NCBI GenBank assembly: GCA_030429145.1
Contig: JAUIDC010000001.1
Location: 904,578 to 936,577 of the forward strand
Reading direction: 5' to 3'
Length of the DNA: 32,000 nt
Source of the DNA: Candidatus Saccharimonadota bacterium
GTDB lineage: Bacteria > Patescibacteriota > Gracilibacteria > Absconditabacterales > Absconditicoccaceae
Below are positions 1-22,854 of the stretch, piece by piece. Each line of letters begins with the position of its first letter. Position 1 is the first letter of the stretch. Position numbers and translations under genes: made by a program. Under the pieces are notes generated by a model. The model saw nothing but the letters and a program-made list of their open reading frames with translations. It made no database searches and was not told the DNA's origin.

Positions 1-131
1 TGCAAGAGAGCTTTCGTTCTAGCTTGATCTGGAGTAGAAAGAGCTTTGAACTGATCAGACTGATAGTAGTTGTCCAAACTACCATGTTGATTGATTATAT
101 TCTCTGTCGCCTGTTGGTTTTGATCCACCAT
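1..131 (-). CDS. Hypothetical virion-module protein, N-terminal part only (continues past the window start)
   Basis: ATG at 129-131 (minus), reading MVDQNQQATENIINQHGSLDNYYQSDQFKALSTPDQARTKALL with no stop before position 1. It lies 25 nt downstream of the preceding gene in the same operon. Confidence 0.4.
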   Translation of the reverse strand, partial: MVDQNQQATENIINQHGSLDNYYQSDQFKALSTPDQARTKALL

Positions 132-156
132 AATTGATTTGTATACTATATAAATG

Positions 157-519
157 TTATCTGATCCTTGCTATTCATTTGGCAGTTGGGGTGCTGGAGT
201 ATGTGATTTCTATCGTATCACCGTTTCACAGTAGCATTACCTTGTCAGGGAAGTCCTCAAACGTGCCTGGTACTCTCGATATTCTGAGAGACACTCACGA
301 TCCTCATGTCACAATAATATCAACGGGATATCATAGTGTGTTTTGCCACGTTGCAGGAGATCCAGAGAGCGTCAGTGTAAATACATTTTGTAGCTCCGTA
401 TATTTTGATATTGGAGCAGAGAACACTCCTTCATCCTGTATTGGTTTTAGTTTTGGATGTCTCACATAGGCTTGAGAAAACTCTCATGTCTTATTGTTGA
501 GAGACGGAGTAAGTATCAT
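157..519 (-). CDS. Hypothetical virion protein, 120 aa
   Basis: ATG at 517-519 and TAA at 157-159. Six in-frame TGA codons (for example 484-486) are read as Gly. The product is beta-rich and plausible (MILTPSLNNKTGEFSQAYVRH...). It is co-oriented with the tail genes; the standard-code + ORF 134-469 is its antisense shadow. Confidence 0.5.
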
Positions 520-547
520 ATCAACTTGCTGGCTAGTGCCGAGTGCG

Positions 548-2704
548 TTATTCATTAGGCTTTATAGCATATGAGATATCGATGTCATATATTTCTGGAG
601 ACTCTCCATTGCTTGGATTGAACATTTCTACTATGAGACTGCATTCGTTTCACGATACATTTGCATTTTCTGCTAGTACCGTATGTTTTCTTTGTCGAGA
701 TGCTGTTGTATAATCGCTAGTTGATGGAGCTATTTCTTTTATGAAAAGCTCTATAGTCTTGGATGGTGCAAAGGTGGTCGCTTCAGAGGTGGCAGTTGAT
801 CAGATCCTCACCGTGAAATCGTCGACAACAGATGCGACCGTATACTCATAGATCGGCCTACGGTTAAATCATCTGAACCTGATCACTGATCATGTCTTGA
901 TAAATCATTTGATAGGTGTTTTGAAAACAATGTCGCATGTCGAAGCACCATTCGTCATGCTATAGATCTCAGTATCATTGAGAGACCACCAGAGCTTGAT
1001 TGATCATGGAGTATCTGACCTAGGGATCTTTGCACCGAAGGAGATTTTTTGTGGGATCTTTTCGTGTTGCCATTTTTCAGCTCTAAATGGGTTGAGTTGA
1101 AATCGTCAATAATCGTTGTAGTTATCGTTCGCTTGTGCGAAATAATACTTAATTAGTCTAAATCATAGTTTCCCATTGCCATCGTAGCTATCTGCTGGGA
1201 TGATACCGATATAGAGCACATTACTTTTGATAGCCATACAAGTCACCTGCCCATATGGGAGAGAAATAGGCACATTGAGTGCTATAGGCATGCTAGGTTT
1301 TGCAAATCACAAAGAAAATATCCTATTCATACTATTCTGAGACACACCGCCTCACACATTACCACCGTTTGCCATGTATACCATATCGAGATACTTCACG
1401 ATATTATTTGTGAGATCTGGGTAGAAACCAAATCTATCAGATCCTTCCCTGATAGATGACTCATCGCGAGACCAGCTTCTTATTTCATCCGCATATATAG
1501 GATCGTCACTGTACCCTTGACTCAAGAAAATCTTCCTATACCATTGAGATCAACAAACGACATAGTCGACAGTACCGTCTCACGATATATTGAGTATTTT
1601 CACATCACCATATTTCTTTGAGTGTACTGGGAGTTGAGAGACTCCATCCCAGAAAAACTTTTTACCTCTGTTGTCCTCGTTACCATATACCTGAAAAAGT
1701 GATCAGTTTTTACTGATCCCTCTGATATCAATCGGTAGTGATAGTGTTGCAGAAGTGGTGAAAGCATTGCTTGCTGTCTCAATTCTTCTGATCTGTTTGT
1801 CGACGGCAAGCATCAAAAGGCTACCCTCTTTATGAAATGGAGTGTGATTGTCTGACACACCTGATCGAGTTATTTTCCTTGCAAGTGTTGTATCTGTAAA
1901 TAGGAGACTCGTGAGCTGTCCATTGTAAGAGCTCGATGGTCTAAACTCTATTGTAGGATTTGTCGTAGTGACCAACGCTCAAAACACATAGGTGCGAGCA
2001 TCCGTTCATCAGCTTATTGTACCTATTTTTGTACCACCAACATATACGTCAACTGTACCAGTCGATCCTCAGTTTTCTCTCACTTTCAGTCTAAATATCT
2101 TACCATTTGCAGTACCAACGGCCGTTGAGGTTATCGTCAGATATGCAGTATTTCATGCAGTATGTGTAACATCAAAATTTGTACCCTTTGACCATCATGT
2201 ACCAACGCTATACGTTCCAGCGTTTGTCACATCGACGTATTCGGTACTTCCAATTATTCCTGCATGTGCCTGCCCAGTGTTATACTCCCATGAGTAAACG
2301 CCATGACTAGAAACGATAAATCCATAGTTTCCAATCTTCCCTATATTGAGAATGAAAGCAGGTATTGATACGATGCGTCACGTTGATGTGTCGTACTTAT
2401 ACGTTGTTTCGCTATAGAGAGCCCCACCGTCAGCAACCGATCATCCATATGTCGCTATCATTTGTTCATTATTTCATCCATCGCATTGTGCAACAGGATA
2501 CCCCTCATTGTTGTTCTCGGTGATTTTTATGAAATCATCACCAGCATCACCAATAAGTTTTGATAGCCTTACTCTACCAGACTGAGAAAAAGTATCTATG
2601 TTCTCACCATAGAAATACGAATGCTCCAGAGGCACGTACTTATCGTTTGTGATGCCTCATATGAGAGTCGGGATGTTGTATGGTTGTCTGATATCTCATG
2701 CCAT
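548..2704 (-). CDS. Large tail protein, 718 aa, possibly a nozzle or tail-tubular-B-like or receptor-binding protein
   Basis: I translated it codon by codon. ATG is at 2702-2704 and TAA at 548-550. It has 24 in-frame TGA codons and no in-frame TAA or TAG. The track ORF 1703-1975 is an internal fragment. Its size and position, after an adaptor-like gene downstream of the MCP, match podovirus nozzle proteins. Confidence 0.7.
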
Positions 2705-2708
2705 GGCG

Positions 2709-3395
2709 TTACACTAGGTTGCTGTTATCAGGTCTTTCTCAGTAGGCAGGCTTTGTGCTTCTGATGCTGACCTCATCTAAAAGAGTATCTAGTTTTCTTT
2801 TGAACTCTGCCTCATTGTCATTTTTTTCGTTTATGAGTTGCCTTTCTTTGAACAGATCGCTTGCTACTCATAGTGGCAAAAGAAAGTGCATCTCGTATGG
2901 GAGTCTTATGTCGGCCTCAACGCTTGATGACGATAGAGGCGCTGGCTGTCTTATTCCTTCAAATTTTATACCATTTGTCACAGCAACAGTCGGTGTTGGA
3001 AAGATGAATATACTATCATCTGCTATGATGTAGAAAGGATCATCTTTCGACTGGTTCGTTTTATACCGTAGAATATCAGTGTCTTTGTCCAATTCCTCGA
3101 AACTCCTCTCTGTGCATGGAGTGAAATAGTCATCGGTAGATGCATATTTGATCCCGATGTTTTCGATTTTCCTCTGTCCTGGAGTTGTACCACTCACTCA
3201 CAATATGGTGTACTCGCTTTGATCCAAAACTGAGTCCGCATATCGTCTATCTCGTTGGTAGCTCCTATCTTTCAAGACGATTTCTGAGTATATCAAATCA
3301 CGGACAGCCGAGAGGATGTCGTAACAATCGTCGTCATCAGTGGTATAGTTACCACTTAATCTCCTTGCTCTCGCAATTATCGCACTAGGTAGCAT
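2709..3395 (-). CDS. Putative head-tail adaptor or tail-tubular-A-like protein, 228 aa
   Basis: Track ORFs 3198-3395 and 2868-3197 are contiguous in one frame across TGA 3198-3200. The frame continues through TGA 2868-2870 and 2739-2741 to TAA at 2709-2711. The function is inferred from position only. Confidence 0.6.
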
Positions 3396-3426
3396 ACTTC
3401 CATGAGGTTATCCATAAAATGTATTG

Positions 3427-3453
3427 CTTTGGTTATATGTGCCACAACCAAAG
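3427..3453 (-). terminator. 8-bp stem-loop between the 163-aa gene and the adaptor-like gene (attenuator or stabiliser)
   Basis: CTTTGGTT pairs with AACCAAAG, starting 9 nt after the TAG at 3462. The downstream U-tract is weak. Confidence 0.35.
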
Positions 3454-3461
3454 CTAACATA

Positions 3462-3953
3462 CTATGAGTCCTCTCCCTCTGCATCGTCTTCATCGTCAGA
3501 GTCAGCATCAGCATCCTCATCATCAGAAGCGTCAGGCATTTCTGCGAGAGCCTTATCGACCTTAGTTTTGAGTTTATCAAGACCAGTATTGTGATAGTTC
3601 TTGATACCAAGAGCCTTTGCAGTCTCTCTATATTCCTCCTCAGTCTGAGGGTTCATATTGATGTCCACATTTGCATCATCAGAAGCGTCTTCTGAGTCTG
3701 CATTTGCGTCTTCTGCTGGAGACTCGTCTGGTTTGATCATAGATCTTTCGTGAGTCCATTTATCTCTAGGGACAATAGGATCTCATCCACCAAATCCAGC
3801 ATTGACAGATACTCTCGCACCTTTCTTTTTTGCTACATGGTTGCGATCTACTATTTGATAGTTATCAGGTTTCCCATTTTCTCTGTTCTGCCTGATCCTT
3901 GCGACATCTTCTGTACGCACTTTTCTACCTTCAAACATGATATATTGAGCCAT
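3462..3953 (-). CDS. Acidic hypothetical head-associated protein, 163 aa
   Basis: ATG at 3951-3953 joins in frame to track ORF 3462-3740 across one TGA; the stop is TAG at 3462-3464. It has D/E-rich tails and a helix-extension-helix-like segment (ETAKALGIKNYHNTGLDKLKTKV). Confidence 0.6.
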
Positions 3954-3969
3954 TATAATTCGTATAAGA

Positions 3970-4005
3970 TAAATAAAGAAAAGGAAGGAGGCAAAGCCTC
4001 CGTCC
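3970..4005 (-). terminator. Intrinsic terminator or attenuator directly after the major capsid gene
   Basis: On the minus strand GGAGGC-TTT-GCCTCC (3987-4001) is followed by a T-rich run (TTCCTTTTCTTTATTT). Confidence 0.5.
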
Positions 4006-4011
4006 TATAGA

Positions 4012-4971
4012 CTAGCTACCAGGAGAACCAACCAAAGTGAATGGAAGATTTCTGAGACCATATTTGAATGATCCAGCATATGCCCACTTCCATGAGAGGT
4101 TTTGTGACTCAGTCATCACATCTCCTTGGAGTTGAGGTCTTTCGATGAAGTTCACGAACATTGGGTTCTCAACAGCCAACATATCTGAGTCTGCAACAAA
4201 GAAGTATGCAGTACCACTTGTTAGCCATGGAGTCTCGATGATTGTGTACTCACCAGCGTAGATATTGATATTTCCAACTGAAGTAGCTTGATATTGAGTA
4301 CGAATGTTCTCGATACCAAAGATTTGTTTTGCAAGAGCAGCAGCAGCTCCTCCCTTCTTGACTATGATAGTCTTGAAGTTGAGAGGCATCTCCGCTCCAG
4401 TAGAGTCAACAAATGCTCCTCCGTATGCTTCAACAGCTTTTACAACATCGAGAGAGAGTGCTGATGATGCGAGCTTGTTATCGAATGTTCCATCAGAAGA
4501 ATTCCATAGATGTGCATCATTACATACAGATAGTCCATCTGGAGCTAACACATAAGAACCAGTGAACGCGTCATTGAGGATCTTGTGTGTTTCTTTCTCG
4601 AGAAATGAGTGCATAGCAACGAGTGCACCATTTTTCTGGTTATTTACGATCTCAAGGATCTTCTCAGTGTTGTCTCTTGCCTTCAATCTTGCCTTTTTAG
4701 AGACAGAGATTGTATGACCGAACTCCTCTGAGTCGAAAGTAGATCTGTATCCCTTTCCGATCTTTGACTCTGGTAGATTTTCGTTCTCGTCGAAGTATGT
4801 AGGTTGATCTACTCCTTCGTTAGAGGTGAAAGACTCTGAGTATTCGTCAGTGTCTGCCACATCGAAGATCTTATTCATTGCCGAATTTCTGATTGCTTCC
4901 ATAGTCTGGTTATCGAAGTGTTTTTTCACAGACTTGGCAAAATCAGAGTTAAATTCTTGAATAGTAAGCAT
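4012..4971 (-). CDS. Major capsid protein, HK97-fold type, 319 aa
   Basis: Intact ORF with no in-frame TGA and a TAG stop. It sits after the scaffold and decoration genes and has typical size and composition. The C-terminal region (...AYFFVADSDMLAVENPMFVNFIERPQLQGD...) resembles the Mu-T/P22-like capsid class. Confidence 0.85.
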   Translation of the reverse strand: MLTIQEFNSDFAKSVKKHFDNQTMEAIRNSAMNKIFDVADTDEYSESFTSNEGVDQPTYFDENENLPESKIGKGYRSTFDSEEFGHTISVSKKARLKARDNTEKILEIVNNQKNGALVAMHSFLEKETHKILNDAFTGSYVLAPDGLSVCNDAHLWNSSDGTFDNKLASSALSLDVVKAVEAYGGAFVDSTGAEMPLNFKTIIVKKGGAAAALAKQIFGIENIRTQYQATSVGNINIYAGEYTIIETPWLTSGTAYFFVADSDMLAVENPMFVNFIERPQLQGDVMTESQNLSWKWAYAGSFKYGLRNLPFTLVGSPGS

Positions 4972-5013
4972 GATAAGTCGATAGTAAAACGAGGTAAAAT
5001 AGCAGGCAATCTG

Positions 5014-5442
5014 CTAGTAAATGTGTTTGTTGATTTTCACAACGATGTTTCCTACAGCACCGACGGTAGTACCATGCTTGGTAGTGTCGTATGGGCTGAT
5101 CTTGAATACGTCAGTAGAACTTGCACCAACGTCAATGAGTTGATCTGAACTAGACATAACAATGTCGACCTCAGTTCCTCTTTGAGCTACTGCATAATTT
5201 GCATCACCAGTACCGATGAATTCAGCTTCCTTGTCTGCAATGACAGGGCATTTCGTTTCACCTGCTGGTGCTCCGTCTGGACAGTTTGCAATAGCCGCCG
5301 ATGCAGCTCCTGCCTCTACAGCAAGACCTGATGAAAGGGCTACCATTCTACCAGCGGTAATGACTGTAGCACTACCTTTCGCTAGATATCCAGTGCGGAA
5401 ATGTTCTCCAGCGTTTAGAATTTCAAAGTTTTTTGCTGCCAT
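5014..5442 (-). CDS. Putative head decoration or cement protein, 142 aa
   Basis: Gly/Ala-rich beta protein immediately upstream of the MCP. Its position and size resemble DUF2190-type decoration proteins. No in-frame TGA; TAG stop. Confidence 0.5.
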   Translation of the reverse strand: MAAKNFEILNAGEHFRTGYLAKGSATVITAGRMVALSSGLAVEAGAASAAIANCPDGAPAGETKCPVIADKEAEFIGTGDANYAVAQRGTEVDIVMSSSDQLIDVGASSTDVFKISPYDTTKHGTTVGAVGNIVVKINKHIY

Positions 5443-5469
5443 AATTAAGAATGGATATGGAAATAAATG

Positions 5470-6051
5470 TTATTTTTTGTCCTTATCGGACTTTTTCTCA
5501 GTGAATGGAGACTTACTGAACACTGCGTCTGCTAGTGATTGAGTACCTCATGGAGTTCCATATTGTCCATGGATCTTTGAGATCTTTGTTCTCTCTTTCG
5601 CAGCATATGCAGGGTCTTTCATTTTCCTTCCGTGAGCGACATGGTATGCGTCCTCCAAAGGGATGTTGTGATCTTTGGCAATAGCTTCTGCATCCGCTAG
5701 AAGTTCATCGCCATATCTCTCGACGAGTGATGCTCTCTCCGCAGACTCTTTCTGCTGTTTAGAGACAATTTCTTTGACATCATCCTCCGACATAGCGCCA
5801 GTTTTCTTGAGATCTTGAACTTTGTTGTAGTTTCTTTTTTCTCTACCCTTCATTTTCTCAATTTTCTGATCTTTCTTGTTGAGCTCCGCTTTCAGTTGCT
5901 CTGGAGAGAGATCTTTGTACTTGTCTTCGGCATCAGACGGATCACGGTCTCCACCCTCCCCATCATCATCGTTGTCAAGATCATCATCGTTCTGAGTATT
6001 AAGCTCTTTTTCATCTCCTTCGTCAGGAGTCGTTGTTGTTACTTCTACCAT
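5470..6051 (-). CDS. Putative scaffolding protein, 193 aa
   Basis: Track ORF 5548-6051 extends through TGA 5548-5550 to TAA at 5470-5472. It has an acidic N-terminus and a charged, coiled-coil-like middle, and lies between the portal and capsid genes. Confidence 0.6.
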
Positions 6052-6138
6052 GGTTAATTGAGTTTAAAGGTTAAATGTTTTATGTAGCCTAACCAAGCTA
6101 CGATGGTCTTACTCCATGACTTGCACGGATGCCGTATA

Positions 6139-6489
6139 TTATCAGCCCCTCTGTTGGAGGTTATGATCAGGATTGAGAGTCTTTGCTTCTTGATAATATT
6201 CGAGAGGTTGTTTCTGGATATTTTCGAGGAACGCTATGATATTTCTCAGTTCTTGTACCTCATCCATCGTATTAGCTTTTGTACGTAGATCCTCGTATGC
6301 TTGATTTATTTTCTCCTGCACTAGATCGACAAAGAACATCTTGAAACATGGATTTTCTAGGAAGCTCACGAACACAGTGAAATCGACTTTTGCCTTCTTT
6401 GTCTTTTCATAGAACTCCTCAAAAAGCTGTCAGAAGTATCAGATCATATTCTCTCAGTAGATGAGTTTATTATCGACGGACTTTATCAT
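6139..6489 (-). CDS. Hypothetical head-module protein, 116 aa
   Basis: ATG at 6487-6489 overlaps the portal stop (minus strand reads ATGATAA). Four in-frame TGA codons; TAA at 6139-6141. It contains track ORF 6142-6375. Confidence 0.5.
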
Positions 6490-8486
6490 ACGACCGACTG
6501 TCTAGTAGGTAAATTGTCTGTCTGAGACATGTTGTTTTTTATCATATTTGCTTGTAGCATAGAGGCCGACGCATTAGCAGTAGATCCCATCGCTCAGTTT
6601 CCATACTCTCACGGAGCGACGTTTCCGATCGACATTCATTGCTCTGTGAGTCTTGACTCTATTTCAGAGAGAACCTTCTCTTTGACTTCTGTATTCTTGC
6701 AACTCTGGAAGCAGATATAGTATGTGAACAGATCTATACCAGGCTTGAAAAGATTTTGTGGCATCTCGTCGGAGTTGATCATTCTCTTGTATATCATCGC
6801 TCTCCTCTCATCCGGTAGTAGAGGGTAGCGAGCAAGAATTTCTTCTCTCGGAGTACCATTCAACTTCTCGATCTCTCTGCACATCATGATTTTTGAGATC
6901 TTTGGCACTTCTGGATTGTTGAGGACAATAGGCTCTCTTGCCGTAAGGTAGGCAAGACGTGGTTTTGCATCCTCAAGAGCTTGTTTCCTAGATATCACTT
7001 TGACTTTCGTCTCGAGTCCTTTCTCGATATCTTCTCTATTGATCTCGAGCTCTGCACCGATGAGTCAGTTTCCAAAATTGGTATATTTCTTCTCGGTATC
7101 AGACATGTACTCCAGCAGACTTCTCAGCCATATGATACGCCAGAAATCTTCTTCTCCGAAACCGATGATCTGTGCATCGAGTCTGAACATGAGGTTTGAG
7201 TTGACTTGCTGTTGCTTAGCTTCTCAGAGAGTCTGGTTTGGTCAGAAAGGCAATCACCTATTAGCAGCCGAGTATCATGTTTCCGACTGTATCTCACGAT
7301 CGAGCCTGTCAATCATGTTAGTAGTATTGCTATCTCACTTGTCTGCATCGAGAATATGGATGGCCTGACTGAGAGATTTCCCATCTTTTGTCCTGGCAGG
7401 AACGATCACAGGTCAGTTCTGGTTTCTATCTTTCAATAGATCGCTATTTGGGATGAGATCCATGTCAGCAAGGATATGACGGAAACCTGCGTTCTGTTCT
7501 TCTTTTATGATCAACAAGTTCATGAGCTTGTTCTTCGCATCTTGGCCTCCGATGGCAAGTTCTGCGAGTCACATACCAGTAGGATCTGCATACAATGGGA
7601 AAAGGTTTGTGTATACAACTGGGAAAGGTACTTTGAGAGGATTTTTCTTTTCCGCCTCAGTGAGAGGGACGATTTCATTGAGTCTATGGACTGTTTTGAA
7701 ACCAAAGCTGACAGTGACTTGGTATTTTCTACCTCTGAACACCTTGAACCACTCGATCAAATTGACCTCTTTATCATCTGCAACAGTCATATTGAGTGAG
7801 CGTTGCATATCGCTCTCCTTCGTGATTTCATCACAAATACCTTCTGGTATCGCATCAACGCCATAATAGACTGGAGGTTTCCCTTCATTTTCCGCTTGTG
7901 CATTGATAGCCTTCAATCTTGCTTTTGTGATCCTTGTAGAGACTCACGTATAGTCATAATCGTTGAAGCGCGTTGTCTTCTGCATGTATACAAACTTTGG
8001 ATTGATAGTATCAAAGATCGGCTCTTTGATATATTCATCCCATCACATTTTGATGCGGGCAGAGACACCATAGAAACCGACGTCTCGCACATGTTGAAAA
8101 TCCTTTCTATGTTTATCCATCAAGACTTGAGAACGCTCTGCCATCTTCTGGAGTCTGTATGCGTAATCATCAAACCAAAAGTCTGTGCCATCGAACTCAA
8201 CGCCGAGATCCGCCTCGAAATAGTTTGAACAATGAGCTTTCATATGTTGATGCAGGACGTGCAATTTCACTAGATCATTCTCGGCAACCTTTGGATTGGT
8301 ATATTTCTTCTCGTAGGTGATCCAGTCTTTCTTTTTGTCACGCATAAAATCCTGTGCGTCGAGGAATTCTTCTTTGATCTCGTCAAGAAGCTCCTTTTCA
8401 AGTTTCTCGTCTGCCTTGATCTGCTCGATCGTGATAACCTCACGAATTCTTTTTGATCTCTCAACGGGGGTACTGATCACCTGCAT
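6483..8486 (-). CDS. Portal protein, 667 aa
   Basis: Track ORFs 8043-8486, 7569-7916 and 6636-6998 share one frame. I translated all the gaps: 14 in-frame TGA codons and no in-frame TAA or TAG, with TAA at 6483-6485. Its size and its position after terL fit a portal. Confidence 0.8.
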
Positions 8487-8515
8487 AGAGTATGGTTCGG
8501 AGTAAATATGACAGA

Positions 8516-8543
8516 ATTATATGACGGAACACAAAATTATCAA
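8516..8543 (-). promoter_or_regulatory. Near-consensus sigma70-type promoter for the portal/head operon
   Basis: On the minus strand TTGATA (8543-8538), a 16-nt spacer, then TATAAT (8521-8516). This lies about 30 nt upstream of the portal ATG. Confidence 0.5.
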
Positions 8544-8555
8544 AGATGTGCATGC

Positions 8556-8586
8556 ACTAAAAACAGTAGGTATAACCTACTGTTCA
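8556..8586 (-). terminator. Intrinsic terminator immediately after terL
   Basis: Perfect 9-bp stem AACAGTAGG/CCTACTGTT (8562-8584) with a 5-nt loop, followed on the minus strand by TTTTT. It sits 5 nt after the terL TAG. Confidence 0.6.
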
Positions 8587-8590
8587 GAGC

Positions 8591-10255
8591 CTACTCGTCT
8601 AGTTCGTCCTCATCTATCTCCATAATCGATGATTTGTACTTCTTTTTGAGTTTTTCTTTATAGCTACCAGGCGTGAAAGGTTTCTCCTCTTTCACACGAG
8701 TCATCCACTGCCCTTGTCATCACTCTGGCATTGTTCTCACCTTGCTCTCCTCTTTGAAGCCTTGGCAACAGATTGCATCGGCCATCACAACGTCGTCGTG
8801 ACAATCTTCTTCTGCTTGAGGCTTTTTATTTCTCACCACAAACGTATACATCTGATCGATAAGTTCTTGATCTGCATCGATCGTCCCGTTTTTTATCATC
8901 TCTTTGTGCTCATCCAGCATCATTGGCCTAGTGACAGAGTTTGTATCCCGACCGATCTTGTCATATACTTTGTCTGAGTCTTTTTTCTGTTTCATCTGGT
9001 ACGTGATGATATCCCCATACCGAGAATAATCCTTTGAAGCATACAAAAATGTGTGTCAATGATTGTTTCTCTCCGGTAGTATTGTTCATGTGATGCCTTG
9101 CTTGTAAACATGATCAACAACATCACACATTTCTTTTCACGGCTCTCTATTCCCCTGATACGAACAGATCAACTCTCATTTTCTATTTCTGACTCTCATC
9201 ACACTCTCATCTCCGTGATCTAATCACTCGGCAAAGTCCAGCCCAAATACTGCATCTGCCTCTGGAGTCCTGATATATCGGATAAGTCATTCGATTTCCT
9301 CATCCTTTTCTCAGACGATAGGCAAAATAGATCTCACGACCTCCAATGGATAGAAAGGCTTACCAGAGAAAATGAACGCATCGCCAGGCTCACTTGGGTA
9401 TTCTTGCAACGTACCTTGCGGATCATCCTTGTATTTTGCTATATATCGTTTCAGCTTTCTATCTGACAGCTTGAGTCTTTTCTTGAGGTGCTCAAGTTCT
9501 TTTGGCAACGACACTTTCTCGCCAGGCAAAAGATCAGACTCGTAATCGTCACTTGTCCACCATGGCACAAAAGTCGTAGCAAATTGTGATCAGATCTTCT
9601 CGTGATTGTTCTGCCACAGAGCATGGAACTCATTCATACCATTCGCAGTTGTCTCCATTGTAAGGTTTGAAAATTCGAGTGCAGGCAGTGCACCTCTGAG
9701 TATCTCTTTGAGTTTCTTGTAGAAAGCGACCTCGGTGAAGTGCGCATCGGTAGGAGATCCAGATCTCGCGTCGAGTGTGATCTTGATCCTTGAGTTCATT
9801 GATGGAAAGTAGTACTCACGTTTGTTGTCGTACTTTGGTATAGGTTTTCTCCATTTACCATTTTTTGTGACAATCACATCGGGGATGCGCTCATACATAA
9901 GTTTGAGCCTCTGGAAAATTTCTTCTGCTTTCTCCCTATCGTGAGCGACGATAATAGCATTAGTATCTCTATAGAAAAGACACTTATCGAGTTTTTCAGC
10001 AAGTTTGTACGTCGTAAATCATATCTGTCTGGCCTTGAGGATAATATGCCATACCTTTCCGTACTTCTCTTTGAGAGTTTTCTCTTTGAAATATAATGCA
10101 CATTGCTCTTTGTTGAGCCTCATCCTCACGAGCTTTTTACTTCTCAGATCTTGGATATGATAGAGGTGGTTCAATCTTCGGAACTTGTTCAAAAGTTTAG
10201 GCTTCGCCTTTTTGAGCAACTCATTCTTTGTGCCTCTATGCTTAGGTACGACCAT
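8591..10255 (-). CDS. terL: Terminase large subunit, 554 aa
   Basis: Track ORFs 10019-10255, 9590-9898, 9311-9568 and 8720-9046 are in one frame and join across 11 TGA codons; TAG is at 8591-8593. The ATPase region reads ILKARQIGFTTY, with that Gly encoded by TGA at 10019-10021. Nuclease-domain motifs are GLDFAEGLDHGDESV and HDDVVMADAI. Confidence 0.85.
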
Positions 10256-10728
10256 TATTCTTCGAGTTCTTCCTCAGTAAATATGTTGACAGTAAGTCAT
10301 GGATCTTTCACCCTTCACTTGACCTTATTGTATTCTGAAATACCTCTCATCTTTACTCATAGATCAAAGTTCTGTAGTATGATCTTTGCATGTTCTTTAT
10401 CTACTGCCTCATCGGTGAACGCTTCTTCCAGTAATTTCTCCAATCTCCTCTTTATGTCAGCATTTGTCATCAGACGTCGTGCCGAGGTTCTCGCCGAAGC
10501 GTACTTACTTTTGTCTTTCTTGTCTATCCCGTATGCCAGTAGATAGGCCTGCGTTGCGTTGTTGAAACAACCAGGCATGGATGTGAAATAATAGCAAAAT
10601 AGCTCTTGCCTGATTGTCAGGCCATTCTCCGACTTCCCTCCTGCATCTAACTTCGGTAGACGTTTTTTCGGTGCTACCTTCTTTTTAGCAGGAGCTTTCT
10701 TTGCGACTCTGGTTGGTTTTTTTACCAT
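10255..10728 (-). CDS. terS: Terminase small subunit, 157 aa
   Basis: It has a basic N-terminus and the motif LTIRQELFCYYF...NATQAYLLAYG typical of Terminase_2-type small subunits. It reads through three TGA codons to TAA at 10255-10257, which overlaps the terL ATG (TAATG). Confidence 0.8.
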
Positions 10729-10743
10729 GATATCATATGATTT

Positions 10744-10935
10744 CTAAATAGACGTTCTGTTATCCTCGATAGAGAAAGATATGCGAACAGATTTTCCCTC
10801 GACGGTTTGTGCGTAGTGGATAGTCGTCGGGAGATCTGACCGTTTGACCTTCTCTGTTACCAAAATCTTCACTATATTGCTTAGCGGATCTGTTATCCTT
10901 GGATCTGCATACTTTTCCTTTTCGTCTTTTGCCAT
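10744..10935 (-). CDS. Hypothetical protein, 63 aa
   Basis: Intact ORF with ATG start and TAG stop, ending 15 nt upstream of terS. Confidence 0.5.
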   Translation of the reverse strand: MAKDEKEKYADPRITDPLSNIVKILVTEKVKRSDLPTTIHYAQTVEGKSVRISFSIEDNRTSI

Positions 10936-10949
10936 AGTTTGACTAATAC

Positions 10950-11186
10950 TTATTTTTCTAAAAGAGAGATATCAACATCCGCGTCCGCCTCCAGCTCCGC
11001 CAGTTTGTCCATGATCTCATTTTTATCCTTGAGATCCATGAGCTCCTCCCTTCCGTCGTGCACTCGATATAGTTTGCTCGGATACGACACGTGCTGGATC
11101 AGTAGGATGCTCTCCTGCCGTCACGCTCTCCTCATCTTCGTTCTGACTCTGATATAATATTCTTGGAGATTGAGTCTTATTGTCAT
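10950..11186 (-). CDS. Hypothetical protein, 78 aa (frame choice uncertain)
   Basis: ATG at 11184-11186, TAA at 10950-10952, one TGA. The acidic helical C-terminus reads ELMDLKDKNEIMDKLAELEADADVDISLLEK. All three minus frames are fairly open here. Confidence 0.3.
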
Positions 11187-11196
11187 AGGGGAGAAG

Positions 11197-11204
11197 TGTA
11201 TAAT
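11197..11204 (+). promoter_or_regulatory. Extended -10 promoter (TGTATAAT) facing rightward, against the phage operon
   Basis: TGnTATAAT at 11197-11204, 20 nt upstream of the ATG at 11224. Confidence 0.45.
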
Positions 11205-11223
11205 ATAAAAAGGCTGAAACGTT

Positions 11224-11343
11224 ATGATGATTGCTCTGTACCTATACTTGCTCATGATTTGCCAGACATTTTGAGTCACGGATCAAATACTACGAGCGCC
11301 TGACGGCCACACCTATCGGTGTGATTTATTGTTTTCTGGATAG
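11224..11343 (+). CDS. Small hydrophobic peptide, 39 aa under table 25 (16 aa under table 11); toxin-like or moron candidate
   Basis: Sequence MMIALYLYLLMICQTF-G-VTDQILRAPDGHTYRCDLLFSG. It has its own promoter, and a hairpin CACACC/GGTGTG (11309-11324) plus T-run at its 3' end. It is the only + strand unit inside the minus-strand phage module. Confidence 0.35.
11307..11340 (+). terminator. Intrinsic terminator for the small + strand transcript
   Basis: 6-bp stem CACACC-TATC-GGTGTG followed by ATTTATTGTTTTCT. Confidence 0.45.
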
Positions 11344-11403
11344 TCCATATCCCAGATAGTGCTATGTAATGCGATTATTGAATGTCTACTATCCAGATCA
11401 TGA

Positions 11404-11868
11404 TTATGGCTGATCTGTGATGAGTATCCCCTCAAGATGATCAAACTCATGCTGGATAACCCTTGCGTGATAACCGTCATATAGCCTCTCTTTCTCGTTC
11501 ATATGTCCATCTATGTGCACCATTCTGATGCCCCATGGTCTGACAACATTTTTCACGACTCATGGCTCTGAGAGACATCACTCACGGTCTCCCACAACAT
11601 TCTCTGATCTCACGGTGATAATTGGATTGATGAAAACACCTCTGAGCTTTTTCCCGTTTCTCTTGCAAGAGACAACAAATCATCTCTTTGGTATTCCTAT
11701 CTGAGGCAAAGCAAGTCACACTGCACGGTGAGAGCTCGAACCCTCTATCCAGTCAAGCATTTCTCGTAACTTTGGCAAATAGATATGCATCTCTCACTCC
11801 TCTATCTCAGTGCATTTCTCTCTCAAGATAGCATCTCAGTCATCTCATAGTCTTATGATTTTGAACAT
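11404..11868 (-). CDS. def: Peptide deformylase, short virus-like form, 154 aa
   Basis: All three PDF motifs are present: G-LALPQIG, E-G-CLSEP-G and QHEFDHLEG. Three motif glycines are encoded by TGA (11716-11718, 11578-11580, 11560-11562), out of seven in-frame TGA codons in total. Only 11 residues follow the HExxH His before TAA at 11404-11406. Confidence 0.85.
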
Positions 11869-11892
11869 ACTCGGTCTGTAAATAATAAATGA

Positions 11893-12126
11893 TTACTCTC
11901 CCCCTTCCTCGTTGGTTGGTAGTCTACCACCATTTTGCTGAGAGGTCAAAATCTTTAGGAGCTCATATGCTACCTCCTCTTGTCTCTCATACTGGTAGTA
12001 CAATTCCTGATTGTTCCTTGCTGAGGGAGACATTTTGCAAGACTGGATATCTGATATCTTTTTCTGCATCTCCTCTGGAGTTTGTATGTCCTCGAGGCTT
12101 GCCTGTCGCGATGGTTTGTTCTGCAT
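11893..12126 (-). CDS. Hypothetical protein, 77 aa
   Basis: Intact ORF with ATG start and TAA stop. Confidence 0.45.
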   Translation of the reverse strand: MQNKPSRQASLEDIQTPEEMQKKISDIQSCKMSPSARNNQELYYQYERQEEVAYELLKILTSQQNGGRLPTNEEGGE

Positions 12127-12239
12127 GGGGTATCGTATAAATAAGATAAAATCAGTTGCTAATTGTCAGTACAATCACCGACATCACTATCCAAGTCCTC
12201 CGGTATGACTTACTATGGACTCATCAAGGGAGTCAGTTC

Positions 12240-12584
12240 TTACCATGGACATGATGGTGGGATAGGTTTCGATGCTTGTCTGCCATTGATGTCTCTGAGA
12301 TTATAAATGGTTTCCATGAATTCCCTCGTGATCGATATTTCCCTTGTATACATGAGTTCTCCGTTGTTGAATACCCTATCCCTGTCTCGCTTCGACTCGT
12401 AGTACTCGATCCTTGCTATCCTTTTGTCGTAGTAGACGAAGATTTTCACCGATCATGCTTTCTTGATTTTATGAGGCAACGGTGCAAACTCCTTTTCTAT
12501 GTCGCTATTGCCTGGTCTATTGCATTTGCATTGCGGAGGGAACTCTGTCCCAAAGTATTCGTATGATTTCTTTCTTGTTGGCAT
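12240..12584 (-). CDS. Hypothetical protein, 114 aa
   Basis: ATG at 12582-12584 (MPTRKKSYEYFGTEFPPQCKCNRPG...) joins track ORF 12240-12449 across one TGA. TAA stop. Confidence 0.55.
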
Positions 12585-12625
12585 TGGTCTATGGACAAAT
12601 GAATAGATAAAACCGTACATTGATT

Positions 12626-12805
12626 TGGAGAGGTAGAGAATTGAACTCTACAAGTGCCATCTAACTATATGGGTGAACCGTACCACGGTGTGGTGGAAGC
12701 ATACGGAGACGCTTTACCCGTAATCTCCCTCTACCTATGACTCTATAGCGTCTGTTATGACATAGGATTGGCATATAGTCTGTGCGTTTCATTCCGCCAC
12801 TCTCC
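12626..12805 (-). ncRNA. Structured RNA candidate whose 3' end resembles a tRNA T-arm plus acceptor strand; not a canonical tRNA
   Basis: The minus strand ends ...TAGAG-TTCAATT-CTCTA-CCTCTCC-A (12650-12626), a textbook T-arm followed by a 7-nt acceptor strand and an A discriminator. GGAGAGT at 12805-12799 can pair with 6 of those 7 acceptor positions. Nested helices lie between: ACTATATG/CATATAGT, CCTATG/CATAGG, GGAGA/TCTCC and CGTA..CCAC/GTGG..TACG. I could not fold a standard D-arm or anticodon arm. Confidence 0.35.
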
Positions 12806-12833
12806 AGATCAAGGCAAAGCCCTGATCACTCGT

Positions 12834-13112
12834 TTATTGCTTTGATACTACGATATAGTTTGGTTCTGGTTTCGTGAAGGCCTTCACTGCCTGCATAGCA
12901 CCATTTTCAAAGTCTGTTATTGCTAACGATGCGTTTCTATTCGCATCTGGGTTGTTGCTCTCCGATCTGAACTTGTTCAACTTGTCGATCATAGCAGCAG
13001 CGAGAGCTTTGATCTCATCTACGTCTCTATTATTACTTGGGTTGAATGGTTTACCCACGAGGTACTCCCCATAGGTTGGTTGTTGTGCATTTGTTACGTC
13101 TTCGTTTACCAT
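12834..13112 (-). CDS. Hypothetical small helical protein, 92 aa
   Basis: Intact ORF with ATG start, TAA stop and no TGA. A 9-bp imperfect hairpin (12809-12829) follows the stop. Confidence 0.6.
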   Translation of the reverse strand: MVNEDVTNAQQPTYGEYLVGKPFNPSNNRDVDEIKALAAAMIDKLNKFRSESNNPDANRNASLAITDFENGAMQAVKAFTKPEPNYIVVSKQ

Positions 13113-13350
13113 CTGTATGTGTGAAATAATAAAACAGCTACAAAGCCAAAATCAAAAAACACCTGACAGTCTTTCGACCAGCAGATGTCTCATGCAGTTT
13201 TTCCATATACAGAAATTACCGCTCTTTGAGCGGGTTTGTCTAGCAACAACTACTCGCATATTATAGGTTACATACCAAGAGTCAATACCTTGTTGAAAAA
13301 ATCTATTTACTTTTTATGTAAACTGACTAGAATATCAAAATTATTTATAT

Positions 13351-13590
13351 ATGACTCAAACAATGGATAGCAAACAAGCATATAGCAAGGCATGGAAAGC
13401 AGTGAACAAGCCGAAAACCAAGAAGTATCGAAAGAAATACTATCAGGAAAATAAAGATACGATCCTCGAGAAGGCGAAAAAGAGACCAAAAAAAACATTC
13501 ACTGAACAAGAAAAACTAGAAAAGAGAATAAAAAACAGATTATATATGCAAAAATATAGAGCAAAAAAGGCTAAAGAAAGCCAAAAGTAA
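13351..13590 (+). CDS. Small, highly basic Lys-rich protein, 79 aa
   Basis: Intact ORF with repeated KKYxxxY/N motifs (KKYRKKYYQENKD; RLYMQKYRAKK). It is transcribed divergently from the 12834-13112 gene. Confidence 0.55.
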   Translation: MTQTMDSKQAYSKAWKAVNKPKTKKYRKKYYQENKDTILEKAKKRPKKTFTEQEKLEKRIKNRLYMQKYRAKKAKESQK

Positions 13591-13618
13591 GAAAACAACA
13601 AAAAAAGTCTATTTATTC

Positions 13619-13646
13619 TTGCAATCTTACAAAAAAAGATTATACT
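13619..13646 (+). promoter_or_regulatory. Sigma70-type promoter, TTGCAA-N16-TATACT
   Basis: TTGCAA at 13619-13624 and TATACT at 13641-13646. The same architecture recurs at 22818-22845 and 23415-23442. Confidence 0.45.
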
Positions 13647-13905
13647 GAGTTATGCTAAATTATCAGGGAAGGAAATCGACGACAGACTGTTCGATCCATC
13701 CCGTACGATAATACACGCATAGGAAAGCCAAAAAGATACGATCATTAAAATTCCCCTTGCAATTAGAAAATAGCTGACTAAACACTCGGTCAGTTGTAGT
13801 CTCTTTTCATACGTAACTCTAACCTATATTTTCTCCTCGCTTTTCATTGATTTTTCGCCAAAAATCAATAAAAAGCAATAGATTTTATGTAAAAATGGCT
13901 TCTGT

Positions 13906-15045: not shown

Positions 15046-15069
15046 TTTGTTCATTCTTTTCTATTATCC

Positions 15070-16419: not shown

Positions 16420-16422
16420 CTA

Positions 16423-18651: not shown

Positions 18652-18681
18652 AGATTAAAGAGTAAATATCCCCCAAGTTAT

Positions 18682-18712
18682 AAAAAAAAGGAGCCGCTTT
18701 GCAACAGCTCCC
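18682..18712 (-). terminator. Intrinsic terminator after the FKBP gene
   Basis: On the minus strand GGAGC-N11-GCTCC is followed by TTTTTTTT. It lies about 30 nt upstream of the 742-aa gene's ATG. Confidence 0.55.
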
Positions 18713-18735
18713 CCTTTGATAAGTTTATCTGATAA

Positions 18736-19302
18736 TTATTTTGCAACAATCTCCTTAAGAGTAATTTCAAATGTGAGCGTCTTACCTGCCATAGGCGAGT
18801 TGTAATCCATGATCACATTGTCTCCTTCTACAGCTTTCACTGTTGCGTATGAGCCTTGTGAAGTCTGGTAGGTCTGTCCTACTTCTGGAGTGATACCTGA
18901 CTGTGAAAACTCTGTACCTGATACAGCAACGATAAGATCCTCTCTTATCTCTCCATATGCCTGGTCAGGAAGAAGTGTCACTGTTTTACTTTCTCCTTCT
19001 TTCATACCAACGATAGCATCATCAAATCCTTGAATCATCTGTCCTCCTCCAATAGTAAACTCTAATGGAGCGTATGATCTCTGTGGCGAGAAAAGTGCAT
19101 TATCTTTTGCTACTTGTTCAAGACTTGTATCAAAAACTGTTCCGTCTTCAAATGTTCCTACGTAGTCTACTCTTACTGTATCTCCTTGTTGAGCTGTTTT
19201 TCACATTAACCCATTTCCTTTACCAAATAAAATCCATGCGAGTGCCGCAATCACGATAAGCGCGATCACGATAATCAGTCCTTTTTTTGTATTTCCGTTC
19301 AT
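18736..19302 (-). CDS. Membrane-anchored FKBP-type peptidyl-prolyl cis-trans isomerase, 188 aa
   Basis: The FKBP core reads DTVRVDYVGTFEDGTVFDTS...FTIGGGQMIQGFDDAIVGMKEGE...YNSPMAGKTLTFEITL. The N-terminal TM is LIIVIALIVIAALAWILF. One in-frame TGA (19201-19203). ATG at 19300-19302. Confidence 0.85.
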
Positions 19303-22845: not shown

Positions 22846-22854
22846 ATCAGGCTC

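What the first reader, a model, noticed from the sequence alone, without database searches (positions are those of the whole stretch)
1..13112. Tailed-phage module that shares the host's UGA=Gly code, integrated next to housekeeping genes
A complete packaging and morphogenesis operon emerges only after recoding. The gene order is terS, terL, portal, a 116-aa protein, scaffold, decoration, MCP, an acidic protein, an adaptor-like protein, a 718-aa tail protein and further genes running off the window. In-frame UGA counts are 24 in the tail protein, 14 in the portal and 11 in TerL. The element therefore depends on a UGA-decoding tRNA-Gly and on the absence of RF2 activity. Standard-code annotation would reduce most of it to short hypothetical ORFs or miss it. 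Few phages of code-25 CPR hosts are described, to my knowledge.
Basis: partly seen in the sequence, partly recalled or inferred. Interest (0 to 1): 0.75.

Follow-up and report, generated by a model that had tools for sequence, protein, structure and literature searches.

The report
Code-25 prophage in an Absconditabacterales genome
The left 13 kb of the window is the packaging-and-head end of a tailed-phage genome sitting in the chromosome of an SR1/Absconditabacteria bacterium and, like its host, reading UGA as glycine; the finding is real, but prophages of this kind were already described in 2023.

Summary
On the minus strand of 1-13112 there is a gene array that is readable only if TGA is a sense codon: TerS, TerL, portal, 116 aa, scaffold-like, 142 aa, MCP-like, acidic protein, SU10-type adaptor, an orphan 718-aa protein, and more genes running off the left end. 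The TGA counts are 24, 14 and 11, as stated. TGA means Gly, not Trp. It falls on invariant Gly positions of TerL (67/67 standard-code homologues), of the phage peptide deformylase (GxGLAAPQ, EGCLS) and of host alanine racemase. Host genes start by 13906, and NusA homologues name the host as Absconditabacterales. A related genome has the same host genes but no phage at this site. TerL, the 718-aa protein and the host NusA are each recorded on an NCBI contig of 936,577 bp. Only one junction lies in the window, so att sites, integrase and completeness could not be checked. The kind is known: Liu et al. 2023 (mBio) reported 15 Absconditabacteria prophages, all code 25. This is a very divergent new member, and only TerL has relatives. 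Side observations are an Acb2/Tad1-like gene, a short phage-type deformylase, and strong avoidance of TGA in the head genes.

The parts
1..131 (-). 5' part of a further phage gene that runs off the left end of the window (MVDQNQQATENIINQ...)
   Evidence: Translation of the left end.
157..555 (-). 132-aa protein with 6 TGA; possibly tail-associated
   Evidence: ORF under code 25. Only a weak hit, phrog_11182 tail spike, E=0.009.
548..2704 (-). 718-aa orphan protein with 24 in-frame TGA; tail or nozzle-like by position only
   Evidence: No Pfam or PHROG hit. Only itself among 5.8 billion proteins. Five weak partial hits among 1.84 billion representatives. It directly follows the adaptor gene.
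2709..3395 (-). Head-to-tail adaptor, 228 aa, SU10-adaptor family
   Evidence: PF24175, 32.9 bits (cut-off 27), residues 5-213 against profile 5-185 of 194.
3462..3953 (-). Acidic 163-aa protein with 1 TGA
   Evidence: phrog_2130 (function unknown), E=9e-7.
4012..4971 (-). Putative major capsid protein, 319 aa, no TGA
   Evidence: phrog_4523 'major head and protease protein', E=3.8e-5, matching the C-terminal capsid part of the profile. Position and size fit. No tblastn or PDB sequence hit. The single-sequence AF2 model was unusable.
5014..5442 (-). 142-aa protein between scaffold and MCP (decoration or head-fibre candidate), no TGA
   Evidence: Position only. No profile hit.
5470..6051 (-). 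Scaffold-like 193-aa protein, acidic N-terminus, 1 TGA
   Evidence: phrog_4866 head scaffolding, E=0.008, plus position.
6139..6489 (-). 116-aa protein, 4 TGA, unknown function
   Evidence: ORF under code 25. No hits.
6483..8486 (-). Portal protein candidate, 667 aa, 14 TGA
   Evidence: phrog_156 portal E=1.1e-5. PF23899 SU10_portal 22.8 bits, below the cut-off of 30. It lies directly downstream of TerL.
8591..10255 (-). Large terminase subunit, 554 aa, 11 TGA
   Evidence: phrog_2 E=1.9e-24. 27-28% identity to annotated TerL of Vibrio and Stx phages. 238 homologues at E<=1e-10. The Walker-A Gly is encoded by TGA.
10255..10728 (-). Small terminase subunit, 157 aa, 3 TGA
   Evidence: PF03592, 32.3 bits (cut-off 26.1). 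phrog_51 E=7e-13.
10744..11255 (-). Two small ORFs (63 and 101 aa), unknown function
   Evidence: ORFs only. No hits.
11404..11868 (-). Phage-type short peptide deformylase, 154 aa, 7 TGA
   Evidence: PF01327 E=5.7e-34. phrog_2890 E=1.7e-29. The best PDB match, 3uwa, is also 154 aa. All three catalytic motifs are present.
12834..13112 (-). 92-aa Acb2/Tad1-hairpin-domain protein (candidate sponge for signalling nucleotides), no TGA
   Evidence: PF24729, 36.5 bits (cut-off 27). phrog_717 E=2e-6. The AF2 model is a two-helix hairpin, pLDDT 68. The fold search was not significant.
13113..13905 (.). Junction region holding the right prophage boundary; AT-rich, with a lysine-rich 79-aa ORF (13351-13590, +) and a GC hairpin at 13219-13233
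   Evidence: GC 0.347. Sequence read. Hairpin found. Host orthologues begin at 13906.
13906..19846 (.). Host chromosomal genes next to the prophage: 379-aa and 449-aa membrane proteins (+), 742-aa protein, FKBP and a 159-aa protein (-)
   Evidence: Orthologues in the same order in the related genome L004, at 33, 26, 45, 47 and 36% identity. The FKBP/730-aa block is also found in L087 and L088.

Best explanation
Window 1 to about 13.2-13.9 kb is one end of a tailed-phage (Caudoviricetes) genome integrated in the chromosome of an Absconditabacterales (SR1) bacterium.

Shown:
- It encodes a co-directional late operon: TerS, TerL, portal, scaffold-like, small head protein, MCP-like, adaptor, then tail genes.
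- Upstream of that operon lie accessory genes: a short peptide deformylase and an Acb2/Tad1-like protein.
- In-frame TGA in these genes stands for glycine, exactly as in the neighbouring host genes.

Inferred:
- The phage proteins can be made only by a translation system with a UGA-reading tRNA-Gly and no RF2. That is the host's own system, because no tRNA lies in this part of the element.
- TerS/TerL package DNA through the portal into a scaffold-assembled capsid.
- An SU10-type adaptor then joins a probably short (podovirus-like) tail, with the orphan 718-aa protein in the nozzle or tail position.
- The most abundantly made head proteins avoid TGA, GGC and GGG and use GGA/GGT, consistent with selection for fast decoding.

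Not established: whether the element is an inducible prophage or a cryptic one.
For: Phage identity: TerL phrog_2 1.9e-24, TerS PF03592 and phrog_51, adaptor PF24175 above cut-off, weak portal and MCP hits, canonical order. TerL is 27-28% identical to annotated terminases.

Code:
- 0 TAA/TAG against 74 TGA in frame, and coding fraction 0.48 rising to 0.90.
- Three TerL TGA positions sit in columns with Gly in 67 of 67 standard-code homologues.
- PDF TGAs fall on the Gly of GxGLAAPQ and EGCLS.
- In Alr, 4 of 5 TGA positions align to Gly and none to Trp.

Host:
- NusA homologues are named Candidatus Absconditabacterales, Absconditicoccaceae and Absconditicoccus praedator.
- RF1 with a PAT motif, MurA, Alr and others lie to the right.

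Integration:
- The genes from 13906 onward have orthologues in the same order in L004. There the neighbour is a T2SSE-like ATPase gene 64 bp away and no phage is present.
- The exact NusA, TerL and 718-aa protein are each recorded on an NCBI contig of 936,577 bp.

Clade: 43 of 119 TerL homologues look TGA-recoded. L002, L006 and L007 gain 0.3-0.6 in coding fraction under code 25.

Codon bias: the head block has 2 TGA among 59 Gly codons against 73 of 200 elsewhere, Fisher p=6e-8. RSCU excluding Gly correlates at r=0.84 with the rest of the phage.

Literature: all Absconditabacteria prophages found by Liu et al. 2023 are code 25 (PMC10746230).
Against: - Only one junction is in the window. No integrase, att repeat, lysis, replication or lysogeny gene was seen, and the source contig could not be fetched.
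- Only 2.4 kb separates terS from the host DNA, whereas the TerL relative L002 has a divergent replication module there. The genome is therefore either permuted by integration or incomplete.
- Portal and MCP calls are weak, and the 718-aa 'tail' label has no homology support.
This was not verified by sequence.
- There is a modest compositional step at the boundary (GC 0.42 against 0.39; tetranucleotide r 0.88).
Confidence: 0.85

Rival explanations
1. Cryptic or domesticated phage remnant. The structural module was left behind by an old integration, or co-opted as in a gene-transfer agent or a satellite-helper arrangement, and is no longer an inducible prophage.
For: No integrase, repressor, replication or lysis genes lie within the 13 kb seen. 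Host DNA begins only 2.4 kb upstream of terS, whereas the relative L002 carries a DnaB replication module there.
Against: All large genes are intact, with no TAA/TAG interruptions across 3635 codons. TerS and TerL overlap as TAATG. Expression-linked codon bias in the head genes suggests ongoing selection. Genes continue off the left end. An att site between the accessory genes and the early genes would produce the same picture.
Confidence: 0.2
2. Assembly chimera. A free code-25 phage contig was wrongly joined to an Absconditabacterales chromosome near 13.1-13.9 kb.
For: There is a compositional step at the boundary (GC 0.42 falling to 0.35-0.39; tetranucleotide r 0.86-0.88). The junction is AT-rich and low in complexity. 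An independent Logan assembly of ERR3428547 does not cover this stretch, because its contig starts at window position ~22963.
Against: Phage TerL, the 718-aa protein and the host NusA are all recorded on a 936,577-bp contig, so the phage would have to lie inside a chromosome-scale contig rather than at a ragged end. Both sides use the same code, and codon usage is similar (r 0.80). Prophages of this kind are documented in these hosts.
Confidence: 0.05
3. TGA is read as tryptophan (code 4), or is a leaky stop or selenocysteine codon, rather than as glycine.
For: Public protein collections hold these genes translated with TGA=Trp (P0001 and P0247). Coding density alone cannot tell code 4 from code 25.
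Against: Aligned homologues have Gly at the TGA positions in invariant motifs: TerL Walker A, AEG and NNHGH columns in 67 of 67 standard-code homologues, PDF GxGLAAPQ and EGCLS, and Alr EG..HF, R.G..LYG and G.G.GYG. No TGA position lies in a Trp-conserved column; the one variable TerL column has Trp in 11 of 67 standard-code homologues. Seventy-four in-frame TGAs per 3635 codons rule out SECIS-dependent Sec.
Confidence: 0.01

Closest known systems
Code-25 prophages and phages of Absconditabacteria and Gracilibacteria (Liu, Jaffe, Chen, Bor and Banfield, mBio 2023, PMC10746230)
   Same: An integrated phage region in an Absconditabacteria genome. It is dense in in-frame TGA, is annotatable only under code 25, and is recognised by terminase, portal and tail genes. 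This matches the paper's description of 15 Absconditabacteria prophages.
   Different: Whether this particular element is among those 15 could not be checked. Its proteins other than TerL have no detectable relatives in the collections searched. The paper does not mention an Acb2/Tad1-like gene or capsid-gene TGA avoidance in the passages read.
TerL clade shared by TGA-recoded metagenomic phages (L002/ERZ27258552 45-kb contig, L006, L007, and P0002-P0050)
   Same: TerL is 37-52% identical. TGA is used as a sense codon. The late-gene order is similar: terS, terL, portal, small protein, scaffold, about 140 aa, MCP.
   Different: Only TerL is similar by BLASTP or phmmer; portal, MCP, adaptor and tail genes are not. 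L007 carries a tape-measure-like 869-aa gene, so the clade spans different tail types.
Escherichia phage SU10 (Kuravirus) head-to-tail interface; my own recollection places it in Siborova et al. 2022
   Same: The adaptor protein matches Pfam SU10_adaptor above the curated cut-off, and the portal gives a partial SU10_portal match. The adaptor is followed by a large protein, as adaptor is followed by nozzle in podoviruses.
   Different: The portal score is below cut-off. The 718-aa protein has no similarity to any nozzle or other known protein. MCP and TerL are not SU10-like; TerL is nearest to Stx-phage and Vibrio-phage terminases at 27-28%.
Stop-codon-recoded phages of standard-code hosts (Borges et al., preprint 10.1101/2021.08.26.457843)
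   Same: A phage whose genes are unreadable in the standard code.
   Different: In those phages the phage code differs from the host code, and recoding is concentrated in late and lytic genes as a proposed timing device. Here the phage and host share the code, and the most highly expressed late genes are the ones that avoid the recoded codon.

Membership tests
Code-25 prophage of Absconditabacteria/Gracilibacteria (as in Liu et al. 2023) | Dense in-frame TGA, with much higher coding density under code 25 than under code 11 | tested here: met
   Coding fraction 0.48 rising to 0.90. 74 in-frame TGA and 0 TAA/TAG in 3635 codons.
Code-25 prophage of Absconditabacteria/Gracilibacteria (as in Liu et al. 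2023) | TGA decoded as glycine, not tryptophan | tested here: met
   Gly in 67 of 67 standard-code TerL homologues at three TGA columns. The PDF motif glycines and 4 of 5 Alr positions agree.
Code-25 prophage of Absconditabacteria/Gracilibacteria (as in Liu et al. 2023) | Hallmark phage genes (terminase, portal, tail, integrase) | tested here: met
   TerL, TerS and the adaptor are significant; portal and MCP are weak. No integrase lies within the window.
Code-25 prophage of Absconditabacteria/Gracilibacteria (as in Liu et al. 2023) | Embedded in a host chromosome of that lineage | tested here: met
   NusA relatives are named Absconditabacterales. There is synteny with L004, which lacks the phage. 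The contig length of 936,577 bp is shared by phage and host proteins. Only one flank was seen.
Code-25 prophage of Absconditabacteria/Gracilibacteria (as in Liu et al. 2023) | Two boundaries with att repeats and an integration enzyme | not testable with these tools
   The left end lies outside the window and the source contig could not be retrieved.
Caudoviricetes packaging and head module (HK97-type) | Large terminase with ATPase and nuclease domains | tested here: met
   phrog_2 covers residues 61-517. The invariant Walker-A K/R-Q-x-G and acidic residues are conserved in alignment A1.
Caudoviricetes packaging and head module (HK97-type) | Portal protein | tested here: inconclusive
   phrog_156 E=1e-5 and PF23899 22.8 bits, below the cut-off of 30. 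No PDB or GenBank phage hit.
Caudoviricetes packaging and head module (HK97-type) | Major capsid protein with the HK97 fold | tested here: inconclusive
   phrog_4523 E=3.8e-5 over 130 residues. The AF2 single-sequence model had pLDDT 33 and was unusable. No sequence hits.
SU10/Kuravirus-like podovirus tail | SU10-type adaptor | tested here: met
   PF24175, 32.9 bits against a cut-off of 27, near full length.
SU10/Kuravirus-like podovirus tail | Nozzle, tail needle and fibre proteins homologous to SU10 | tested here: not met
   The 718-aa and 132-aa proteins have no Pfam, PHROG or database relatives.
Acb2/Tad1 nucleotide-sponge anti-defence proteins | Acb2/Tad1 hairpin domain | tested here: met
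   PF24729, 36.5 bits against a cut-off of 27, residues 25-80.
Acb2/Tad1 nucleotide-sponge anti-defence proteins | Structural match to solved Acb2, Vs.4 or Tad1, and binding of cyclic nucleotides | tested here: inconclusive
   The AF2 model is a two-helix hairpin, pLDDT 68. In Foldseek, T4 Vs.4 (7uq2) ranks 4th but at E=1.8 and TM 0.39. Binding cannot be tested here.
Phage-type short peptide deformylase | Three catalytic motifs (GxGxAAxQ, EGCxS, HExxH), ending just after motif 3 | tested here: met
   The motifs read AVxLALPQ, ExCLS and HEFDH, where x is a TGA-encoded Gly. The protein ends 10 residues after HEFDH. The best PDB match, 3uwa, is also 154 aa, E=2e-18. PF01327 E=5.7e-34.

The most novel reading that the evidence does not exclude
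The element may be the first glimpse of a new podovirus-like lineage specific to Absconditabacteria. All its virion proteins other than TerL lack relatives among billions of public proteins. It carries an Acb2/Tad1-type nucleotide sponge, which would imply that cyclic-nucleotide immune signalling (CBASS or Thoeris-like) operates in these ultra-small episymbionts or in the bacteria they prey on. It also tunes expression through the recoded codon, with UGA-Gly purged from capsid genes because UGA decoding is slow or limiting.
Probability: 0.2. Interest if true: 0.6.

Novelty: new member of a known kind. Interest (0 to 1): 0.35.

Why it matters
- It is a clean, checkable example of a phage that has co-adopted its host's UGA=Gly code.
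- It shows how such elements are lost or garbled in public resources. The large protein collection used here holds TerL and the 718-aa protein translated with Trp at every UGA, including the Walker-A glycine. Other assemblies of the same organism are cut into fragments by standard-code gene calling.
- For CPR biology it adds a very divergent virus. Only the terminase is recognisable by sequence.
- It offers a candidate anti-defence gene and a measurable codon-usage signature, namely avoidance of UGA-Gly in abundant proteins. Both could be followed up across the roughly 40 recoded relatives of its terminase.
- It does not open a new category. Code-25 prophages in Absconditabacteria were reported in 2023.

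Tried and rejected
- Leftward extension and source contig. Exact-protein look-ups for MCP, the 142-aa protein, the Acb2-like protein, ORF79, P0001 and P0247 all returned nothing. The 718-aa protein was absent from GTDB representative genomes. An exact 46-mer from the left end was absent from JGI metagenomes.
- Close relatives. There were none in IMG/VR for TerL or MCP.
- Tail-protein identity. There was no homologue for an alignment, only five weak hits in the exhaustive search, and these carried no informative Pfam domains and no link to the proteins of related phages.
- MCP fold. The single-sequence AF2 model failed, pLDDT 33.
- Other sequence searches. Phmmer against the PDB for portal, adaptor, MCP and the Acb2-like protein gave nothing meaningful. 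Tblastn of MCP and portal against GenBank phages gave nothing.
- att search. No meaningful repeat involves 13.1-13.9 kb. There is no tRNA in the window or in related loci.
- Idea rejected. I considered whether the TGA-poor head block was recently acquired from a standard-code phage. Its non-Gly codon usage matches the rest of the phage (RSCU r 0.84), and it also avoids GGC and GGG. That points to expression-linked codon bias instead.
- ORFs rejected. The plus-strand ORFs 3402-4010, 5216-5830 and 12471-12926, picked by a greedy caller, were set aside as shadows of the minus-strand genes.

Full report
**Observation**

With TAA and TAG as the only stops, the minus strand of the left 13 kb resolves into a tight, co-directional gene array.
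- The genes are: 132 aa (157-555), 718 aa (548-2704), 228 aa (2709-3395), 163 aa acidic (3462-3953), 319 aa (4012-4971), 142 aa (5014-5442), 193 aa (5470-6051), 116 aa (6139-6489), 667 aa (6483-8486), 554 aa (8591-10255) and 157 aa (10255-10728).
- Beyond them lie two small ORFs, a 154-aa gene (11404-11868) and a 92-aa gene (12834-13112).
- The 554-aa gene starts at an ATG that overlaps the stop of the preceding gene as TAATG.
- In the coding frame of 13 of these genes there are 0 TAA, 0 TAG and 74 TGA in 3635 codons. The two other frames carry 88 and 116 TAA+TAG.
- The coding fraction of 1-13112 is 0.48 with the standard code and 0.90 with TGA as sense.
- A further minus-strand gene begins at 131 and runs off the window.

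**What the genes are**

- The 554-aa protein is a large terminase. It matches phrog_2 at E=1.9e-24 over residues 61-517, is 27-28% identical to annotated TerL of Vibrio and Stx-converting phages, and has 238 homologues at E<=1e-10.
- The 157-aa protein is a small terminase: PF03592 at 32.3 bits against a cut-off of 26.1, and phrog_51 at 7e-13.
- The 228-aa protein matches Pfam SU10_adaptor nearly end to end and above the curated cut-off.
- The 667-aa protein gives only weak portal matches: phrog_156 at 1e-5, and SU10_portal below cut-off.
- The 319-aa protein gives a weak capsid match, phrog_4523 at 3.8e-5. For both, position and size fit.
- 'Scaffold' has marginal support (phrog_4866, E=0.008).
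- 'Decoration' (142 aa) and 'tail' (718 aa) rest on position alone.
- The 718-aa protein is an orphan. Among 5.8 billion proteins only its own mistranslated copy is found. An exhaustive HMMER scan of 1.84 billion representatives finds five weak partial hits without informative domains.
- MCP and portal find nothing in GenBank phages or among PDB sequences.
- A single-sequence AlphaFold model of the MCP was unusable.
- I infer a short-tailed (podovirus-like) virion. An SU10-type adaptor is followed directly by one large, non-helical-looking protein and no tape-measure gene is visible. This is inference, not a result.

**The code**

Coding density cannot separate code 4 (Trp) from code 25 (Gly), so I looked at what homologues carry at the TGA positions.
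- In an alignment of 119 TerL homologues, three of the eleven TGA positions fall in columns where all 67 standard-code-looking homologues have Gly. These are the Walker-A Gly, an AEG motif and an NNHGH motif.
- The 43 homologues with excess Trp show 'W' or 'G' at those same columns, the signature of TGA mistranslated as Trp by the database.
- In the phage deformylase, TGA encodes the glycines of GxGLAAPQ and EGCLS.
- In the host alanine racemase, four of five TGA positions align to conserved Gly and none to Trp.
- In the host M29 aminopeptidase, one position aligns to Gly and the rest lie in variable or gapped regions.

TGA is therefore glycine on both sides of the junction. That this requires a tRNA-Gly(UCA) and no RF2 follows from what is established for SR1 and Gracilibacteria. 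My own recollection is Campbell et al. 2013, and it is restated in PMC10746230. It was not tested here. The window has no tRNA. It does encode an RF1, with PCRF and RF-1 domains and a PAT tripeptide.

**Host and integration**

- To the right lie NusA, an M50 protease, RF1, MurA, an M29 aminopeptidase, alanine racemase, an HtrA-like protease and more.
- NusA homologues at 60-65% identity are named Candidatus Absconditabacterales, Absconditicoccaceae and Absconditicoccus praedator.
- A related genome (L004, a 120-kb contig, NusA 80% identical) has this order: ExoVII, pyruvate kinase, T2SSE-like ATPase (-), then 64 bp, then 400 aa (+), 437 aa (+), 735 aa (-), FKBP, 156 aa and NusA.
- The last five genes before NusA in that list are orthologues, in the same order and orientation, of window genes 13906-19846, at 33, 26, 45, 47 and 36% identity.
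- Host DNA therefore starts no later than 13906, and the related genome has no phage at this site.
- The FKBP/730-aa block recurs in more distant Absconditabacterales.
- The exact NusA sequence, the TerL and the 718-aa protein are each recorded on an NCBI contig of 936,577 bp. I read this as one chromosome-scale contig holding both.
- The compositional step at the boundary is moderate: GC 0.42 against 0.39, tetranucleotide r 0.88, codon-usage r 0.80. This is normal for a prophage.
- The right boundary lies in the AT-rich 13113-13905 stretch. That stretch holds a lysine-rich 79-aa ORF and a GC hairpin.
- The other boundary, any integrase and the att repeats are outside the window. Every attempt to retrieve the source contig failed.
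- Only 2.4 kb separates terS from the host, whereas the TerL relative L002 has a divergent DnaB replication module there. Either integration permuted the genome, with att lying between the accessory genes and the early genes, or the element is incomplete.

**Relatives**

The terminase belongs to a clade of at least 40 clusters from metagenomes that also use TGA as sense.
- L002 is a 45-kb contig with the same late-gene order.
- L006 sits in a 227-kb MAG contig and L007 in a MAG named 'Candidatus Peribacteria'. Their coding fraction rises from 0.53 to 0.88 and from 0.29 to 0.87 under code 25.
- Only TerL is shared. Nothing else in the window's phage is similar to these by BLASTP or phmmer.

**Accessory genes and codon usage**

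- Upstream of terS the element carries a 154-aa peptide deformylase. It has all three catalytic motifs and ends right after HEFDH. Its best match among solved structures is the 154-aa entry 3uwa, which from my own recollection is a cyanophage deformylase.
- It also carries a 92-aa protein with an Acb2/Tad1 hairpin domain above the Pfam cut-off. Its model is a two-helix hairpin, but the fold search was not significant. T4 Vs.4 appears at rank 4 with E=1.8.
- TGA supplies 29% of glycine codons in phage genes against 15% in the host genes of the window.
- The four head genes (acidic protein, MCP, 142 aa, scaffold) have only 2 TGA among 59 Gly codons, against 73 of 200 in the other phage genes (Fisher p=6e-8).
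- These head genes also avoid GGC and GGG. Their non-Gly codon usage matches the rest of the phage (RSCU r=0.84).
- This points to expression-linked codon selection, not foreign origin.
- Host NusA and RF1 likewise have no TGA. In L002 the MCP has one TGA and its neighbour has none. L007 does not show the pattern.

**Comparison with what is known**

Liu et al. 2023 (mBio, PMC10746230) searched Saccharibacteria, Gracilibacteria and Absconditabacteria genomes.
- They reported 15 Absconditabacteria and 12 Gracilibacteria prophages. All were dense in in-frame TGA and were judged exclusively code-25 compatible.
- They also reported 50 predicted Absconditabacteria phages, mostly code 25.
- The present element fits that description feature by feature, except that its second boundary and integrase cannot be examined.
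- It differs from the recoded phages of standard-code hosts (Borges et al. preprint, listed). Here the phage and host share the code, and the recoded codon is depleted, not enriched, in the most abundant late proteins.

**Verdict**

The element is a new and very divergent member of a known kind, so the novelty and interest are modest. The most useful follow-ups are the full contig with read mapping, the generality of TGA avoidance in capsid genes, and the Acb2/Tad1-like protein.

Noticed in passing
window 12834-13112 (-): A 92-aa, TGA-free protein at the very edge of the phage region matches the Acb2/Tad1 hairpin domain (PF24729, 36.5 bits against a cut-off of 27). It is a candidate sponge for immune signalling nucleotides in a phage of a CPR bacterium.
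   Followed up: partly
window 11404-11868 (-): A phage-encoded short peptide deformylase of 154 aa that ends right after HEFDH. Seven of its glycines, including those of two catalytic motifs, are encoded by TGA. The best PDB match, 3uwa, is also 154 aa.
   Followed up: yes
window 3462-6051 (-) versus the rest of 157-11868: The head-protein block (acidic protein, MCP, 142 aa, scaffold) almost completely avoids TGA (2 of 59 Gly codons against 73 of 200, p=6e-8). It also avoids GGC and GGG. Host NusA and RF1 have no TGA either. This looks like selection against UGA-Gly in abundant proteins.
   Followed up: partly
window 548-2704 (-): The 718-aa protein after the adaptor is an orphan. It has no relative among 5.8 billion clustered proteins except its own copy, and only five weak partial hits among 1.84 billion representatives.
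   Followed up: yes
P0001 and P0247 (database copies of window 8591-10255 and 548-2704): The public protein collection holds these genes translated with TGA=Trp (code 4). The TerL Walker-A glycine and 23 other glycines of the tail protein therefore read as W. About 43 TerL homologues show the same artefact. Logan gene calls for the same organism (L001) are fragmented by standard-code calling.
   Followed up: partly
window 19900-23406: A 934-aa secreted protein with a GDSL/SGNH hydrolase domain (18 TGA) and a type IV pilin-like gene lie between the 159-aa gene and NusA. Both are absent from the related genomes L004 and L005, where NusA follows directly. An independent Logan contig of the same organism starts inside this stretch, at about 22963. 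It is probably a strain-variable island.
   Followed up: partly
window 13113-13905: An AT-rich junction (GC about 0.35) with a lysine-rich 79-aa ORF (13351-13590, +), which has no family match, and a perfect 6-bp GC hairpin (13219-13233). It could not be decided whether the ORF belongs to the phage or the host.
   Followed up: partly
window 11869-12833: No convincing gene between the deformylase and the Acb2-like gene. There are two overlapping minus-strand ORFs (11924-12286 with 6 TGA, and 12240-12620 with 1 TGA) and a plus-strand ORF (12471-12926). None has a family hit.
   Followed up: partly
L002 19453-20727 (+): In a related recoded phage, a tail-fibre-like protein ends in a glycine-rich stretch (GNGGAGGNGTGTGGAGG...). 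Most glycines there are TGA: 57 TGA against 27 GGN in 424 codons.
   Followed up: no
L007 9978-12587 (+): Another phage of the TerL clade carries an 869-aa coiled-coil, tape-measure-like protein with 57 TGA. The terminase clade therefore spans long-tailed and probably short-tailed phages.
   Followed up: no
window 25327-26400 (+): The release factor next to the prophage is RF1. It has a PAT tripeptide and PCRF plus RF-1 domains, and it contains no TGA codon.
   Followed up: partly
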